Source: Promethearchaeota archaeon
Lineage (GTDB): Archaea > Asgardarchaeota > Hermodarchaeia > Hermodarchaeales > Hermodarchaeaceae
DNA length: 64,000 nucleotides
NCBI GenBank assembly: GCA_048939625.1
Contig: JBHLPH010000009.1
Location: 16,400 to 80,399 of the forward strand
Direction of reading: 5' to 3'
Shown here: positions 22,859 to 28,496 of the stretch, one piece after another
Numbering within the stretch: position 1 is the stretch's first letter
How the letters are laid out: each line of letters starts with the position of its first letter
The notes under the pieces: generated by a model
What the model saw: only the letters and a program-made list of their open reading frames with translations
Database searches by the model: none
Told to the model about the DNA's origin: nothing
Made by a program: the position numbers and the translations under genes

Positions 22859-23119
22859 CTATTCTTTGTTTTCCCAGATGATTTGTGTGAGATCTGGTTT
22901 TATGTATAGGATGTTATTCCCTCGGATTAAAACCTCACCAAATTTAGCAGTTGGATTGCCATCCATTAGTTCCTCAGCCCCTTCCAATACGAGATTCATG
23001 TACATGTCAATTTCTTTAAGGCGTCCTCGGTATTCTTTCCCGTCTTTAAGTTTGATTAGAACTAGGTTACTAGCTGCTTTTTGTAAAATCTTGATGGGCT
23101 GGTTCTCCACGGTTTTCAA
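22859..23119 (-). CDS. Sm-like (LSm/SmAP) protein
   Basis: KLKDGKEYRGRL..IDMYMNLVL (Sm1) and VLIRGNNILYI (Sm2). Confidence 0.95.
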   Translation of the reverse strand: MKTVENQPIKILQKAASNLVLIKLKDGKEYRGRLKEIDMYMNLVLEGAEELMDGNPTAKFGEVLIRGNNILYIKPDLTQIIWENKE

Positions 23120-23778: not shown

Positions 23779-24615
23779 ATGACTTCGACGGGAAAGACTT
23801 TGTCAAAACCACGATTCTCTATTGATGATAAGATATGGCTCCGCCAATCCCCTTCTCTCGAAGAGGCCAGTGTATTAATTCAAAATGCAATTTCACAAAA
23901 ACGTTTCATCCTAATTATTGGAGTTTGTTTTGTTGAGTACCAGGGGCGAGCCCGTTCAATTCTAACTGAAGGGGAACGCCTTGTTCTCATAAAACGGGAT
24001 GGCACGATACTTGTGCATAAGGAAAGTGGGGTTGAACCATTAAATTGGCAACCGCCTGGTGCAACAATGAAAGTCACATACGAGGAGGATACTCTCATTC
24101 TTTATGCTAATCGTGCTAAACCCCGTGAAACTGTTCGTATTGAATTTTCCTCCCTCACAATGCTAAGTGCTAGCCTGTTAGATGATCCAGGTGAATTCAG
24201 TATGTATCTAACTGAAGATGAAATGCAACAGGTTCTTAGCACCCACCCCGAACTTATTGAGCCTGGTCTCCGGACCATTGGTCGAGAGCGTCAAGTCGCT
24301 CCCGGGTTCATTGATATATTTGCTCGCGATAGTGACGGACGTTTAGTGATTATTGAGGTGAAGCGCCGTCGAGCTGACAGCGAAGCAGTGCACCAACTTC
24401 ATGGCTATCTCAAAAGCTTTCAGAGTGAAGAGGGTACAGATATCCGAGGAATACTTGTTGCTCCAAGTCTTACTAAAGGTACTTTCACACTCTTAGAACA
24501 ACTTGGTTTGGAATATCGCAAAATTGAACCACAACAATGTGCAGCATATCTGCTTCAGAATAGTTCACATAAACTAACCGATTTCATTGCAAATTCGGAA
24601 CCAGACGAAGGCTAG
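23779..24615 (+). CDS. nucS: Endonuclease NucS/EndoMS
   Basis: YQGRARS, KRDGTILVH, P.NWQPPG, IDI..D..IIEVKR, QL..Y. Confidence 0.95.
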   Translation: MTSTGKTLSKPRFSIDDKIWLRQSPSLEEASVLIQNAISQKRFILIIGVCFVEYQGRARSILTEGERLVLIKRDGTILVHKESGVEPLNWQPPGATMKVTYEEDTLILYANRAKPRETVRIEFSSLTMLSASLLDDPGEFSMYLTEDEMQQVLSTHPELIEPGLRTIGRERQVAPGFIDIFARDSDGRLVIIEVKRRRADSEAVHQLHGYLKSFQSEEGTDIRGILVAPSLTKGTFTLLEQLGLEYRKIEPQQCAAYLLQNSSHKLTDFIANSEPDEG

Positions 24616-25157
24616 CTAATACATGACCAGGCGATTTGTCTAAAGGCATCAGTAACACCCTGCCCTTCCTTCGCACTAGTCTCAAAATATCCCCAACCAA
24701 GCTGTTGTGCGTACGCCATTCCTTCATCAGTTGTAATCTGGCGTTCAACAGTTAAATCCACTTTGTTAGCCAACAACACAGTTGGTACAGCACCGGTAAC
24801 CTGAGACACTTCGGTATACCACGCGGGGAGAGCATCAAATGTCTGACGGCGAGTCACATCATATACTAAAATCACACCTGCTGCTCCCCGATAAAATACC
24901 GGACGAACCGAACTAAAATGTGGTTGTCCAGCAAGATCCCATAACTGTAATCTGACTAGCGTATCTCCAAAATCGAGTTCTTTGACCGCGAAACTCGTAC
25001 CAACTTTCATGTCCCATCTGAATTACAGATGGAATGTCATGATGTACGATTCGCGGAAATGTCCTTCAGTGTAACGGATGATAAGGCTGGTTTTTCCAAC
25101 AGCCCCATCACCGACAACACAGACTTTGAGAACATACTGGCGTTGTTGTACACTCAT
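24612..25157 (-). CDS. Rab-like small GTPase, intron-containing: exon 1 25157-25036, exon 2 25005-24612; predicted spliced product 171 aa
   Basis: ATG 25157 after AGGAG; KVCVVGDGAVGKTS (G1), YIMT|VGTSF (G2/RabF1 after removing 30 nt), RLQLWDLAGQ (G3), FYRGA, LVYDV, NKVD, ETSAK. The ORF track shows only the 3' part because of an in-frame TAA inside the insert. Confidence 0.9.
25006..25035 (-). other. Putative 30-nt bulge-helix-bulge (BHB) mRNA intron
   Basis: Minus strand CGTACAT CATG AC^A TTCCATCTG TAATT CAGATGGGA CATG AA^A GTTGGTACG: 4-bp CATG/CATG central helix, two 3-nt bulges, 9-bp intron stem; canonical cleavage restores ATG ACA GTT GGT. Confidence 0.85.
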
Positions 25158-25327: not shown

Positions 25328-28300
25328 ATGCCGGTTTCAGAGCTCCCAAAGAAATTCGATATTCCTTCCTTAGAACAGGAGATACTGCAGTTCTGGAAGA
25401 AACACCAAGTGTATGAAAAAGTCACTGAACTACTTCGTGATCGTCCTATCTTCCAATTCCTGGATGGTCCACCCTATACAACTGGTGCCATTCACCTTGG
25501 AACAGCTTGGAACAAGATCATGAAAGATTTAATTCTAAGGTATCACCGAATGCGAGGTTTTCGAGTTATCGATACACCGGGATATGACATGCATGGATTA
25601 CCCATAGAGGTTCATGTTGAGAAAGAGCTGGGAGTTAAATCGAAACTTGATATTGAAAAGACAATTGGAGTTGACAAATTCATCCAAAGGTGTCAAGAAT
25701 TTGCGCTCTCAAATTTAGATACTATGACGAAGCAATTTCAGCGATTAGGAGTTTGGATGGATTGGAATCGTCCTTACCGAACAATAGATAATCCCTACAT
25801 TGAAGGAACTTGGTACTTGATGAAAAAGGCCCATGAACGCGGTTTCCTGTACCGGGGGTTGCGTTCTATTGATTGTTGTGTTCGGTGTGAAACAGCCATT
25901 GCGAAACGAGAACATGAGTATCATACCATTGAAGATTATTCAATTTGGGTTAAGTTCCCGATTGTTGATCGACCAAACGAATTCATAGTCATTTGGACCA
26001 CAACGCCTTGGACGTTACCGGCTAATATGGGCGTAATGGTCAATCCCGACTTCGAATATGTCAGAATTCGTGTGGATGATGAAGTATGGATTCTCGCAAA
26101 AGGACTTGCAAATGTTATTCTCCAAGCACTCTTAGACAAATCTTACGAAGTTCTTGAAGTAGTAAAAGGCTCAGATCTTCTCGGTCTCCGCTATAAACAT
26201 CCCTTGACAGAGGAAGTTCCTCGTCAAGCAGAATTCCATCAAGAATATACTAAAGTGCATTCTATTGTTCTAAGCGATGAATATGTTACTCTAGAACAAG
26301 GAACAGGTCTAGTTCACATGGCGCCTGGACATGGTCCCCAAGACTTTGAAGTGGGTGAACGGGAAGAAATTCCTATTTTCTGTCCAGTTACGCTTTCTGG
26401 TGTTTTTTCAAAGGATGGTGGAAAATACGCAGGGATGAAGGTTCAAGAAGCCAATGAAGTAATTCTTACTGATCTACGAAAGAAAGGCCTGCTAGTTCAC
26501 CAAGATACCATTGAGCACGAATACGCTCACTGCTGGCGATGTGGTAGCCCATTAGTCTATCTCGCTACAGATCAATGGTTCTTACGGGTGAGCGACCTTC
26601 GTAACGAGATAATCAAAAAGAATGAGGGTGTCCGATGGATACCTGATTGGGCAGGGCATACATGGTTTCGAAACTGGGTGCAAAATCTTCGGGATTGGTG
26701 TATATCACGACAACGTTATTGGGGCTCACCTCTACCCATTTGGACCTGCGATAAATGCGATCATATCGAAGTTATCGGTAGTGCAGACGAATTAGCTGAA
26801 AAAAGTGGAAAGGTTGTTGAAAACCTTCATAAACCCTGGATTGATGAACCAACCTGGGGCTGTCCAAAATGTAAGGGTACAATGTCCCGGGTTCGCGATG
26901 TTTTAGATGTGTGGTTAGAAAGTGGATCTGCACCTTGGGCCACACGGTGGGCAACATATGGCACGAAAGATTTTGACAATTGGGAAACAGCGGAATTTAT
27001 CATTGAAGGCAAGGATCAAGTTAGCAGTTGGTTCAACACGCTCTTCAACTCAACTATGCTAGTTTCAGATCGAGAACCTTACAGAAACGTGTATATGCAT
27101 GGATTCACCACCGATGAACATGGGCGACCGATGTCAAAATCAAAGGGTGTTGGAGTATTACCCGATGAAATAGTAGAGAAAGTAGGCGCAGAGACTCTCC
27201 GAATCTACAGCATCAAAAGTACCAGTCCCGGTGAAGACATGCATTTTCTATGGAAAGATGTTGAGGATACACGACGAAGCCTATCGATTTTATGGAACGT
27301 CTACGTTTTTGCTACTACTTTCATGAAAGCTGCGAACTACGATCCCAAGAAGCACAAATTTGAACCTAATAAGTTCCAGGATGAGGATCGTTGGATTCTT
27401 TCTCAGCTAAATCACCTCATCGAACAAGTAAGTGAGCGATTGGATAATTACGAATTACCATATGTCCCTCGGTTGATGGAAGACTTCATAGTCCGTGATC
27501 TTAGTCGATGGTATATCAAACTCATTCGTCCGAGAACTTGGATAAGCTCTAAAGATGAAACCAAAACTGCTGCATTCACAACGTTATACCATGTATTACG
27601 TACGCTTCTGAGAGTTCTTGCTCCAGTTTTACCGTTTTTAACAGAGAAGATGTATCAGACACTTGTTCGTTCTGTCGAACCTGATGCACCAATTAGTGTT
27701 CATATGCTCTCTTGGCCGTCTTCGGATTCGAAATTAATTGATCCCGAATTAAGCCAAGAAATGGAGTGGGTATCTGAAATCGTTGAAACCACACAGTATA
27801 TTCGCCAAGAAGAAGGGATAAAACTGCGGTGGCCTTGTCAACGCCTAATAATAGTACCATCAAAGAAGGAATTTCAATTAGACCACTTTAGCGAAGTTGT
27901 CGCCAATCAAACTAATGTTAAAACCGTAGATATTCAGAAAAGCGCAAAGGGGAAATCATTGAAAGAGAAGGAACTTTCCTTTGCTACATTATATCTTGAT
28001 ATATCAGAATCTCCTGAACTCCGCGCCGAACGCCTTTCCCGAGATTTAATCCGTCAAATCCAAGCCACTAGAAAAAGGGAAGGTCTTCACGTGACACAAA
28101 ACATCGAGCTCTATGTAGCATCTCCTTCAGAGGATATTAGACAGGCGATAAAGGATATGAGTGAAGCCATCTCAACGAAAGTAGGAGCAATTAAGTTGAG
28201 TATTAATGAAAGTATACCTGAGATAGCAAAAGCTGCTAAAGGAAAACTAACATTCAATGACCTTGAAATTAGCTTCACCTTTATCGTACAAAAGGAATAG
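25328..28300 (+). CDS. ileS: Isoleucyl-tRNA synthetase
   Basis: DGPPY, HLGT (HIGH-like), WTTTPWTLPAN, GTGLVHMAPGHG, WCISRQRYWG, PMSKS. Confidence 0.97.
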   Translation: MPVSELPKKFDIPSLEQEILQFWKKHQVYEKVTELLRDRPIFQFLDGPPYTTGAIHLGTAWNKIMKDLILRYHRMRGFRVIDTPGYDMHGLPIEVHVEKELGVKSKLDIEKTIGVDKFIQRCQEFALSNLDTMTKQFQRLGVWMDWNRPYRTIDNPYIEGTWYLMKKAHERGFLYRGLRSIDCCVRCETAIAKREHEYHTIEDYSIWVKFPIVDRPNEFIVIWTTTPWTLPANMGVMVNPDFEYVRIRVDDEVWILAKGLANVILQALLDKSYEVLEVVKGSDLLGLRYKHPLTEEVPRQAEFHQEYTKVHSIVLSDEYVTLEQGTGLVHMAPGHGPQDFEVGEREEIPIFCPVTLSGVFSKDGGKYAGMKVQEANEVILTDLRKKGLLVHQDTIEHEYAHCWRCGSPLVYLATDQWFLRVSDLRNEIIKKNEGVRWIPDWAGHTWFRNWVQNLRDWCISRQRYWGSPLPIWTCDKCDHIEVIGSADELAEKSGKVVENLHKPWIDEPTWGCPKCKGTMSRVRDVLDVWLESGSAPWATRWATYGTKDFDNWETAEFIIEGKDQVSSWFNTLFNSTMLVSDREPYRNVYMHGFTTDEHGRPMSKSKGVGVLPDEIVEKVGAETLRIYSIKSTSPGEDMHFLWKDVEDTRRSLSILWNVYVFATTFMKAANYDPKKHKFEPNKFQDEDRWILSQLNHLIEQVSERLDNYELPYVPRLMEDFIVRDLSRWYIKLIRPRTWISSKDETKTAAFTTLYHVLRTLLRVLAPVLPFLTEKMYQTLVRSVEPDAPISVHMLSWPSSDSKLIDPELSQEMEWVSEIVETTQYIRQEEGIKLRWPCQRLIIVPSKKEFQLDHFSEVVANQTNVKTVDIQKSAKGKSLKEKELSFATLYLDISESPELRAERLSRDLIRQIQATRKREGLHVTQNIELYVASPSEDIRQAIKDMSEAISTKVGAIKLSINESIPEIAKAAKGKLTFNDLEISFTFIVQKE

Positions 28301-28320: not shown

Positions 28321-28377
28321 TAAGGGAAATTATCTCAACTTCCATAAGGGCACGTGGCTTAGCCTGATGGAGCGCCG

Positions 28378-28408
28378 AACTACCGCGCTTAACGCGTGGA
28401 GTGTGTAT
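28378..28408 (+). other. tRNA intron 1 (non-canonical position 29/30, 31 nt, relaxed BHB)
   Basis: Central helix GCGC/GTGT, bulges CG^A and AT^G, intron stem ACT..CGCG-CTTAA-CGCG..AGT. Confidence 0.75.
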
Positions 28409-28416
28409 GCCTTATA

Positions 28417-28454
28417 TGGAGTCGCTCCGAACATTCGTTTGCGAAACCTAGGTA
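28417..28454 (+). other. tRNA intron 2 (canonical position 37/38, 38 nt, BHB)
   Basis: Central helix CTTA/TAGG, bulges TA^T and TA^A, intron stem GG..CGC/GCG..CC, exon helix CCGGC/GCCGG once intron 1 is removed. Confidence 0.8.
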
Positions 28455-28496
28455 AGCCGGAGGTCGCGGGTTTGAATCCCGCCGTGCCCACCACTC

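What the first reader, a model, noticed from the sequence alone, without database searches (positions are those of the whole stretch)
25006..25035. Bulge-helix-bulge mRNA intron interrupting a Rab-like GTPase gene
Seen: the minus-strand frame from ATG 25157 reads MSVQQRQYVLKVCVVGDGAVGKTSLIIRYTEGHFRESYIMT-FHL*FRWDMK-VGTSFAVK. The 30-nt insert folds as exon helix (CGTACAT/GTTGGTACG), central 4-bp helix CATG/CATG, 3-nt bulges ACA and AAA on opposite strands, and a 9-bp stem TTCCATCTG/CAGATGGGA closing a TAATT loop. Established: this is the substrate geometry of the archaeal tRNA-splicing endonuclease EndA, which cuts after the second nucleotide of each bulge, with ligation by RtcB. Cutting there joins AC+A to rebuild the G2 Thr codon and gives an intact 171-aa GTPase with G1-G5 and RabF-like motifs. 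BHB introns in archaeal mRNA are best known from crenarchaeal cbf5. Inference: protein-catalysed mRNA splicing of a eukaryotic-signature gene in a probable Asgard archaeon. Standard annotation would miss it and call a truncated ORF or pseudogene.
Basis: partly seen in the sequence, partly recalled or inferred. Interest (0 to 1): 0.96.

Follow-up and report, generated by a model that had tools for sequence, protein, structure and literature searches.

The report
tRNA-type mini-intron in Asgard GTPase
A Rab-like GTPase gene of an uncultured Asgard (Hermodarchaeia-type) archaeon is interrupted by a 30-base hairpin shaped like a tRNA intron. Comparison with relatives shows it almost certainly has to be cut out of the messenger RNA by the tRNA-splicing enzymes, a kind of splicing published inside an archaeal coding sequence only for cbf5.

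Summary
The minus-strand Ras/Rab-family gene (24612-25157) carries an in-frame 30-nt insert (25006-25035) with a TAA stop. The insert has a 9-bp hairpin, a 4-bp CAUG/CAUG helix, ACA and AAA bulges, and an exon-exon outer helix.

- **Orthologues:** the class has 19 GTDB species, 17 with an orthologue. Fourteen lack the insert and read ...ESYIMT|VGTSFAVK, exactly the product of cutting after base 2 of each bulge. Three (this genome included) carry it at the same site, and metagenome contigs add five further variants.
- **Structure:** the insert is always 30 nt. Three stem pairs show compensatory changes, and the central helix never varies.
- **Selection:** insert-bearing copies differ at 62-73% of synonymous sites, yet dN/dS is 0.02-0.06 in both exons. 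The gene is alive.
- **Machinery:** the genome encodes an alpha/beta EndA with the broad-specificity loop, plus RtcB.
- **Same genome:** cbf5, dnaG and an EF-2 paralogue carry inserts of the same architecture.

No RNA data could be obtained, so splicing itself is inferred. The insert is scattered among insert-free sister species, which implies repeated loss or gain.

This scan has already flagged similar introns in at least 31 other Asgard genomes. I found no paper reporting them. I class it as a new member of a known kind.

The parts
25036..25157 (-). Exon 1 of the Rab-like GTPase (ATG 25157; codons 1-40 plus AC of Thr41; holds the P-loop G1). An SD-like GGAG lies at 25170-25167.
   Evidence: Between insert-bearing species pN is 0-0.016 against pS 0.47-0.62.
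25006..25035 (-). 30-nt intron (phase 2, inside the switch-I/G2 Thr codon). It contains an in-frame TAA in the hairpin loop. Because the third base of both bulges is A, 25005-25034 would give the same mRNA.
   Evidence: Absent at exactly this place in the insert-free orthologues. Always 30 nt in 8 variants.
24612..25005 (-). Exon 2 (A of Thr41, then VGTSFAVK... through G3-G5, stop TAG 24614-24612).
   Evidence: Best solved relative is Thorarchaeota Rab 7EZB, followed by eukaryotic Rabs.
25012..25034 (-). Intron hairpin h': 9-bp stem (25034-25026 with 25020-25012) and the 5-nt loop TAATT.
   Evidence: Folds. Three pairs show compensatory C-G/U-A changes across 8 sequences; 92% of cells are paired.
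25038..25041 (-). Central helix H, 5' strand CAUG (in exon 1). It pairs with 25008-25011.
   Evidence: Invariant in all 8 variants.
25008..25011 (-). Central helix H, 3' strand CAUG (last bases of the intron). Its AUG is what gene callers take as the start of a truncated 132-aa ORF.
25035..25037 (-). 5' bulge ACA. The predicted cut lies between 25036 and 25035.
   Evidence: Invariant. A clean 3-nt bulge in every minimum-energy fold. The cut rule comes from PMC2738675.
25005..25007 (-). 3' bulge AAA (AGA in one variant). The predicted cut lies between 25006 and 25005. In the minimum-energy fold it is part of a larger internal loop (relaxed motif).
25044..25049 (-). Outer exon-exon helix h, 5' strand UCGUAC (Ser-Tyr codons). 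It pairs with 24995-25000.
   Evidence: 5-6 of 6 pairs in the seven insert-bearing loci tallied (five distinct variants), against 2-4 of 6 in the 9 insert-free orthologues.
24995..25000 (-). Outer exon-exon helix h, 3' strand GUACGA (Gly-Thr-Ser codons).

Best explanation
The 30 nt at 25006-25035 are a tRNA-type bulge-helix-bulge (BHB) intron in the pre-mRNA of a Rab-like small GTPase.

Proposed mechanism:
1. The transcript folds so that exon-1 CAUG pairs with the CAUG at the 3' end of the intron.
2. This helix is flanked by an ACA bulge and an AAA bulge, an intron hairpin, and an exon-exon outer helix.
3. The heterotetramer-type (alpha-beta) splicing endonuclease EndA cuts after the second base of each bulge.
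4. RtcB joins AC to A. This rebuilds the switch-I threonine codon and gives a 171-aa GTPase. The intron is probably released as a 30-nt circle.

Shown here: the structure, its conservation and covariation, the exact match of the predicted junction to insert-free orthologues, purifying selection on both exons, and the presence of the enzymes.

Inferred: that EndA and RtcB actually do the cutting and joining.
For: 1. Junction. The insert-free orthologues of the same class (14 species genomes, of which I read nine through the junction) read ...IMT|VGTSF. That is exactly the product of cutting after base 2 of each bulge. The cut rule is documented for the cbf5 intron (PMC2738675).

2. Independent occurrences. 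The insert is present at the same site and always 30 nt long in 8 distinct sequences: three species genomes, G000 (this genome), G007 and G012, plus JGI, ENA and Logan contigs.

3. Structure conservation. 95% of cells are paired, against 23-43% when the 3' partner is slid. Three stem pairs carry compensatory changes. Helix H and the ACA bulge are invariant.

4. Selection on the protein. dN/dS is 0.02-0.06 between insert-bearing copies, with pS of 0.62-0.73, and it holds in both exons. Some variants have 2-3 in-frame stops in the insert, so read-through is impossible.

5. Selection on the exon RNA. The outer exon helix forms 5-6 of 6 pairs only in insert-bearing copies, despite near-saturated synonymous divergence.

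6. Machinery.
- EndA alpha has E = 5e-47 to the Aeropyrum pernix catalytic subunit 3P1Z_B, and the alignment runs through the crenarchaeal loop region.
- A second, divergent subunit appears to lack the catalytic His.
- RtcB is present.
- Asgard EndAs are reported as (alpha-beta)2 with the L1 loop, which allows relaxed motifs (PMC5829648).

7. Same genome. cbf5 (40 nt), dnaG (28 nt) and an EF-2 paralogue (31 nt) carry inserts with the same layout. The same cut rule restores NLDKPPGPTSH, GQTEGLLGEDL and RGITIKS respectively.

8. tRNA introns. Canonical tRNA introns of this genome use the same layout.
Against: The 3' site is not a clean 3-nt bulge in the minimum-energy fold. The strict BHB form costs about 4 kcal/mol more, and one stem pair is mismatched in three variants.

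The covariation rests on only 8 related sequences.

The AUG in the 3' strand of the central helix is invariant. That could also serve as a start codon for a separate exon-2 product.
Confidence: 0.85

Rival explanations
1. Split gene without splicing. The two ORFs (a 44-aa P-loop piece ending ...IMTFHL*, and a 132-aa piece starting at the AUG of CAUGAAA) are translated separately and either work together or only the larger piece is used.
For: The AUG at 25010-25008 is invariant in all 8 variants. Gene callers annotate the 132-aa and 44-aa ORFs separately.
Against: - The exon-1 tail varies as protein (FHL, SYL, SHL) while the bases covary as a stem.
- No conserved Shine-Dalgarno sequence precedes the AUG (GGGAC in some variants, UAAGAC in others).
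- This reading does not explain the fixed 30-nt length, the invariant helix and bulge, or the exon synonymous-site constraint.
- It would replace the invariant G2 Thr context with MK.
- Three other genes of the genome have frame-shifting inserts of the same shape, which cannot be read this way.
Confidence: 0.06
2. Inactivating insertion. The gene is a recently broken pseudogene, or the insert is an assembly artefact.
For: There is an in-frame stop. Most congeners lack the insert.
Against: - Eight independent assemblies carry the insert.
- Insert-bearing copies have diverged at 62-73% of synonymous sites yet keep both exons intact, with dN/dS of 0.02-0.06.
- A distant lineage (72-73% protein identity to the window's genus) keeps the same insert.
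Confidence: 0.02
3. Recoding at the ribosome: translational bypass (hopping, as in T4 gene 60) or stop-codon read-through across the hairpin.
For: A stable hairpin with a stop codon in a coding sequence resembles known bypass elements. CAUGA is repeated at both ends of the insert.
Against: - Hopping from AUG to AUG would give ...IM-KVG and lose the G2 Thr.
- Hopping from ACA to the only downstream ACA lands in front of UGA.
- Read-through would add 10 residues inside switch I and would have to pass up to three stops.
Confidence: 0.02
4. The insert is removed from the RNA, but by a mechanism other than EndA and RtcB (another nuclease and ligase, or self-cleavage).
For: The 3' site is relaxed, and no enzyme assay exists.
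Against: - The geometry and cut positions are exactly those of EndA substrates.
- 30 nt is too small for group I or group II ribozymes.
- There is no Rfam match.
- EndA with the broad-specificity loop and RtcB are both present.
Confidence: 0.05

Closest known systems
BHB-type intron of the cbf5 pre-mRNA in Crenarchaeota (Watanabe 2002; Yoshinari 2006; Yokobori 2009, PMC2738675)
   Same: - A short insert inside a coding sequence with a relaxed bulge-helix-bulge motif.
- Cut between bases 2 and 3 of each bulge.
- Interrupts the codon of a functionally critical residue.
- The host has a hetero-oligomeric EndA.
- Patchy distribution, interpreted as gain followed by secondary loss.
   Different: - A different host gene (a Rab-like small GTPase, a eukaryotic signature protein).
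- A different lineage (Asgard class Hermodarchaeia).
- The insert is in frame with a stop rather than frame-shifting.
- Turnover is much finer grained, with sister species differing.
- Splicing is not yet shown experimentally here, whereas cbf5 splicing was shown by cDNA and in vitro cleavage.
Archaeal tRNA introns at BHB motifs, which are very abundant in some Asgard classes (PMC11291895; bioRxiv 10.64898/2026.10.13.758758)
   Same: Same motif layout, similar size range (tens of nt), same predicted enzymes, and repeated gain and loss within a class.
   Different: The host RNA is an mRNA. The outer helix is built from coding sequence, and it constrains synonymous sites.
BHB intron in the 5' UTR of Haloferax volcanii HVO_1309 mRNA (PMC7714728)
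   Same: An mRNA substrate of the archaeal splicing endonuclease.
   Different: That intron lies in the untranslated leader, so removing it does not restore a reading frame.
Unconventional HAC1/XBP1 mRNA splicing in eukaryotes (Ire1 cleavage; RtcB ligation in metazoa). This comparison rests on my own knowledge.
   Same: Protein-only, spliceosome-independent removal of a short mRNA segment at stem-loop sites, with RtcB-type ligation.
   Different: The nuclease is Ire1, the recognition motif differs, and the splicing is a regulated stress response. There is no evidence of regulation here.

Membership tests
Archaeal BHB intron (EndA/RtcB substrate) | Two 3-nt bulges on opposite strands, separated by a 4-bp helix | tested here: met
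   CAUG/CAUG helix with ACA and AAA bulges. The helix is invariant in 8 variants. The 5' bulge is exact in all minimum-energy folds. The 3' bulge is exact only in the constrained fold.
Archaeal BHB intron (EndA/RtcB substrate) | Flanking helices h (outer) and h' (inner) closing both bulges (strict hBHBh') | tested here: inconclusive
   h' is a 9-bp stem with compensatory changes. h consists of 2 weak pairs, then a 2-nt bulge, then 6 bp. The minimum-energy fold turns the 3' site into a 1x6 loop. This is a relaxed motif, of the kind (alpha-beta)2 enzymes are reported to accept (PMC5829648).
Archaeal BHB intron (EndA/RtcB substrate) | Cutting between bases 2 and 3 of each bulge yields the functional RNA | tested here: met
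   The predicted junction AC|A-GUU equals the sequence of the insert-free orthologues that I read through the junction. The rule is from PMC2738675.
Archaeal BHB intron (EndA/RtcB substrate) | The host genome encodes a splicing endonuclease able to take relaxed motifs, and an RtcB ligase | tested here: met
   Two tRNA_int_endo genes. One is the alpha subunit, E = 5e-47 to 3P1Z_B with the alignment running through the loop region. The other is beta-like. RtcB scores 570 bits.
Archaeal BHB intron (EndA/RtcB substrate) | Spliced RNA and excised (circular) intron observed; cleavage by EndA in vitro | not testable with these tools
No protein identical to a spliced product of an insert-bearing gene was among the proteins fetched from the collection.
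Archaeal BHB intron (EndA/RtcB substrate) | The host gene stays under selection (it is not a pseudogene) | tested here: met
   dN/dS is 0.02-0.06 between insert-bearing copies, in both exons.
Rab-like small GTPase (Ras superfamily) | G1-G5 motifs and Ras-family profile match | tested here: met
   Pfam Ras E = 1.4e-46. The motifs can be read directly. The best solved relatives are Thorarchaeota Rab 7EZB, then Rab14, Rab4 and Rab2.
Rab-like small GTPase (Ras superfamily) | C-terminal prenylation cysteines, as in eukaryotic Rabs | not tested
   The C-terminus reads ...AWSCIS, with a single Cys at position -3. There is no CC or CXC motif. I did not analyse this further.
Group I/II intron, intein or MITE | Ribozyme core, in-frame protein-splicing domain, or multi-copy element with terminal repeats | tested here: not met
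   The insert is only 30 nt and has in-frame stops. There is no Rfam hit and no second copy in the genome.

The most novel reading that the evidence does not exclude
The intron is one of a population of EndA-dependent mini-introns that turn over rapidly in Asgard protein-coding genes. Here sister species differ, and four genes are affected in one genome. Its removal would act as a post-transcriptional gate on how much active GTPase is made. That would be a prokaryotic counterpart of regulated, spliceosome-independent mRNA splicing such as HAC1/XBP1.
Probability: 0.2. Interest if true: 0.85.

Novelty: new member of a known kind. Interest (0 to 1): 0.72.

Why it matters
In the papers I could search, protein-catalysed (EndA/RtcB) splicing inside an archaeal coding sequence is documented only for crenarchaeal cbf5. 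PMC7714728 states this explicitly.

Here the same mechanism is strongly indicated for a eukaryotic-signature Rab-like GTPase in an Asgard archaeon. I verified three further genes of the same genome (cbf5, dnaG, an EF-2 paralogue) with inserts of the same architecture.

This matters for three reasons:
- **Annotation.** Standard annotation of Asgard genomes mis-calls such genes as truncated or broken. The databases hold separate 44-aa and 132-aa 'proteins' for this gene.
- **Essential functions.** Essential and signature functions in these organisms depend on the tRNA-splicing machinery.
- **Intron turnover.** Gain and loss of introns in protein-coding genes can be studied in the closest prokaryotic relatives of eukaryotes. 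Sister species here differ only by this 30-nt element.

It does not bear directly on spliceosomal intron origin.

Tried and rejected
- **Spliced cDNA in the protein collection.** I looked for a spliced-transcript footprint in the 15-billion-protein collection. No 171-aa protein fetched was identical to a spliced product of an insert-bearing gene.
- **First genome-wide scan.** A generic BHB plus ORF-restoration scan gave 780 candidates and was too unspecific to census mRNA introns. After stricter filters this locus ranked first of 53, and the rest looked like noise or adjacent genes.
- **Second genome-wide scan.** A scan tuned to A-rich bulges recovered the four verified genes among 107 candidates. 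It is biased by construction and is not a census.
- **Pattern scan of species genomes.** This returned eight hits in two deltaproteobacterial MAGs. They are an unrelated palindromic repeat, not homologues.
- **Further copies.** No other copy of the intron exists in the genome.
- **Rfam.** No family matched.
- **Reverse transcriptase.** No RT gene was found in this 88%-complete genome. The cDNA route of intron loss proposed for cbf5 therefore gets no support here.
- **tRNA comparison.** ARAGORN's intron calls for this genome's tRNAs were too unreliable for a systematic comparison. Only a few canonical cases were usable.
- **Bypass and read-through.** Considered and rejected on codon logic (see rivals).

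Full report
**1. The observation**

On the minus strand a gene starts at ATG 25157, preceded by GGAG nine bases upstream. It reads through the P-loop to ...FRESYIMT, continues FHL, stops at TAA, and resumes in the same frame with FRWDMK-VGTSFAVK... to a TAG at 24612. Read through, the product matches Pfam Ras at E = 1.4e-46. Exon 2 alone is closest to the solved 'Thorarchaeota Rab' 7EZB and then to eukaryotic Rabs.

The extra 30 nt are 25006-25035. RNAfold of 63 nt around them gives -20.8 kcal/mol (z = -3.4). The predicted features are:
- a 9-bp hairpin with a 5-nt loop;
- a 3-nt ACA bulge;
- the CAUG/CAUG helix;
- a 6-bp helix between exon codons Ser-Tyr (UCGUAC) and Gly-Thr-Ser (GUACGA).

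In the minimum-energy fold it is a 1x6 internal loop, and the strict 3-4-3 bulge-helix-bulge (BHB) form is about 4 kcal/mol less stable. The motif is therefore relaxed, not canonical.

**2. Comparative test**

The window lies in a 2.3-Mb, 83-contig genome, called G000 below (G plus a number denotes a GTDB species genome). Its class holds 19 species in GTDB: one family and two genera. Record titles and protein names place it in Promethearchaeota (Asgard), class Hermodarchaeia.

Seventeen of the 19 genomes have the orthologue. It lies in conserved synteny between the IleRS and NucS genes.
- Fourteen have an uninterrupted reading frame. The nine that I extracted and translated read ...ESYIMTVGTSFAVK...
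- G000, G007 and G012 have the 30-nt insert at the identical position.

The insert-free sequence is exactly what results from cutting after the second base of each bulge (AC|A ... AA|A). That cut rule is documented for the cbf5 intron (PMC2738675).

Gene callers take the AUG of the intron's CAUGAAA as a start codon. Truncated 132-aa 'proteins' beginning MKVGTSF (or MRVGTSF) therefore mark further insert-bearing genes in metagenomes. Fetching their contigs gave five more variants, one from a lineage only 72-73% identical in protein to the window's genus.

**3. Structure conservation**

In the 8 distinct sequences the insert is always 30 nt.
- The central helix, the ACA bulge and the outer-helix core never vary.
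- The 3' bulge is AAA, or once AGA.
- The hairpin shows three pairs with compensatory C-G/U-A changes.
- 95% of cells are paired, against 23-43% when the 3' partners are slid by 1-3 columns.
- One stem pair is mismatched in three variants.

The outer helix forms 5-6 of 6 pairs in every insert-bearing copy tallied, but only 2-4 of 6 in the nine insert-free orthologues examined. Synonymous sites are otherwise close to saturation. The RNA structure therefore constrains codon choice only where the insert is present.

**4. The gene is alive**

Between insert-bearing copies pS is 0.62-0.73 and pN is 0.05-0.08, giving dN/dS of 0.02-0.06. Exon 1 alone has pN of 0-0.016 against pS of 0.47-0.62. Some variants have two or three in-frame stops in the insert, so read-through cannot rescue the protein.

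A pseudogene and an assembly artefact are both excluded. Eight independent assemblies carry the insert.

**5. Machinery and context**

The genome encodes:
- a 186-aa EndA subunit matching the Aeropyrum pernix catalytic subunit (3P1Z_B) at E = 5e-47, with the alignment running through the region of the crenarchaeal specific loop;
- a second, divergent 198-aa subunit that appears to lack the catalytic His, so it is beta-like;
- RtcB.

PMC5829648 reports that Asgard archaea have (alpha-beta)2 EndA with the L1 loop, the type that accepts relaxed motifs.

Following leads from earlier notes of this scan, I checked three other genes of the same genome myself.
- **cbf5:** a 40-nt insert with helix CUGG/CCAG and bulges AUA and AAA. 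The same cut rule restores ...NLD|KPPGPTSH.
- **EF-2 paralogue:** a 31-nt insert with helix GAGG/CCUC and bulges AAA and AAU. It restores ...RRG|ITIKS.
- **dnaG:** a 28-nt insert with helix GCCU/GGGC and bulges ACA and AAU. It restores GQTEGL|LGEDLDL.

All three shift the frame and cannot be explained without RNA-level removal. A few canonical tRNA introns of the genome use the same layout. The intron has no other copy in the genome and no Rfam match.

**6. Evolutionary pattern**

On the GTPase tree the insert-bearing genes are interleaved with insert-free ones. Well-supported branches force at least 4 changes. G007 (with the insert) is sister to G001 (without) at 100/98 support. The distant insert-bearing contig is sister to an insert-free protein at 100/96.

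Trees of the flanking NucS and IleRS genes agree that G007 and G001 are sisters. They also place G000 next to insert-free species.

The intron sequences are clearly homologous. Either the intron is old and has been lost precisely several times, as proposed for cbf5, or it has spread between lineages by recombination. I cannot decide between these. No reverse transcriptase was found in this 88%-complete genome.

**7. Mechanism and rivals**

The best explanation is EndA cleavage at the two bulges followed by RtcB ligation (confidence 0.85). The structure, junction, selection and enzymes are shown here. The catalysis is inferred.

The rivals are:
- separate translation of two pieces (0.06);
- removal by another activity (0.05);
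- ribosomal bypass or read-through (0.02);
- pseudogene or artefact (0.02).

The evidence for and against each is in the Rival explanations section.

**8. Known or new**

In the library I could search, PMC7714728 (2020) states that cbf5 is the only BHB intron reported in an archaeal mRNA, apart from the HVO_1309 5'-UTR intron it describes. Papers on Asgard introns treat tRNA genes only (PMC11291895; bioRxiv 10.64898/2026.10.13.758758). I found no paper reporting such introns in Asgard protein-coding genes.

This scan itself has already flagged similar cases in at least 31 other Asgard genomes, including 30-nt inserts in Rab-like GTPases. Those are unchecked notes, and none had RNA data.

I class the finding as a new member of a known kind.

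Noticed in passing
G000 contig C19, locus L031:1421-1460 (+): cbf5 is interrupted by a 40-nt frame-shifting insert with helix CUGG/CCAG and bulges AUA and AAA. Cutting after base 2 of each bulge restores ...IINLD|KPPGPTSHEV (motif I).
   Followed up: partly
G000 contig C63, locus L039:1070-1097 (+): dnaG is interrupted by a 28-nt insert: helix GCCU/GGGC, bulges ACA and AAU, and an 8-bp hairpin. Removal restores GQTEGL|LGEDLDLREL.
   Followed up: partly
G000 contig C28, minus strand, between the codons for EEQRRG and ITIKSAN: An EF-2 paralogue carries a 31-nt insert (helix GAGG/CCUC, bulges AAA and AAU). It sits in the switch-I RGITI motif, the same functional element as in the Rab-like gene.
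   Followed up: partly
window 28348-28493 (+) = G000 C12:44747-44892: ARAGORN with intron search calls a tRNA-Gly with a 51-nt intron just downstream of the IleRS gene. The default tRNA tool finds nothing in the whole window. tRNA genes here are probably multiply interrupted and under-called.
   Followed up: no
window 23779-24615 (+) and 25328-28300 (+): The NucS/EndoMS endonuclease gene converges on the GTPase gene, and the IleRS gene diverges from it. This three-gene order is kept in all relatives examined, including the distant insert-bearing contig L016.
   Followed up: partly
L022, L023 and L025-L030 (two deltaproteobacterial MAGs, S144_17 and M17_metabat1_scaf2bin.112): A multi-copy palindromic element of about 40 nt (AACTTTCATGACATGGGG...CCCC.TGACATGAAAGTTGG) is followed by a conserved CTCAAAG...GCTGAAAGCAAACATGAC tail. 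It matched my intron pattern by chance and is an unrelated repeat family of unknown nature.
   Followed up: no
L001 versus L004 in the NucS and IleRS trees: G000 is sister to G003 for NucS (100/100) but groups with G007 and G001 for IleRS (96/95). This hints at recombination within this 4-kb neighbourhood, which may bear on how the intron is lost or spread.
   Followed up: no
window 22859-23119 (-): An Sm/LSm-domain protein gene (Pfam LSM, E = 3e-22) lies about 1.5 kb from the GTPase gene. Nothing links it to the intron.
   Followed up: no
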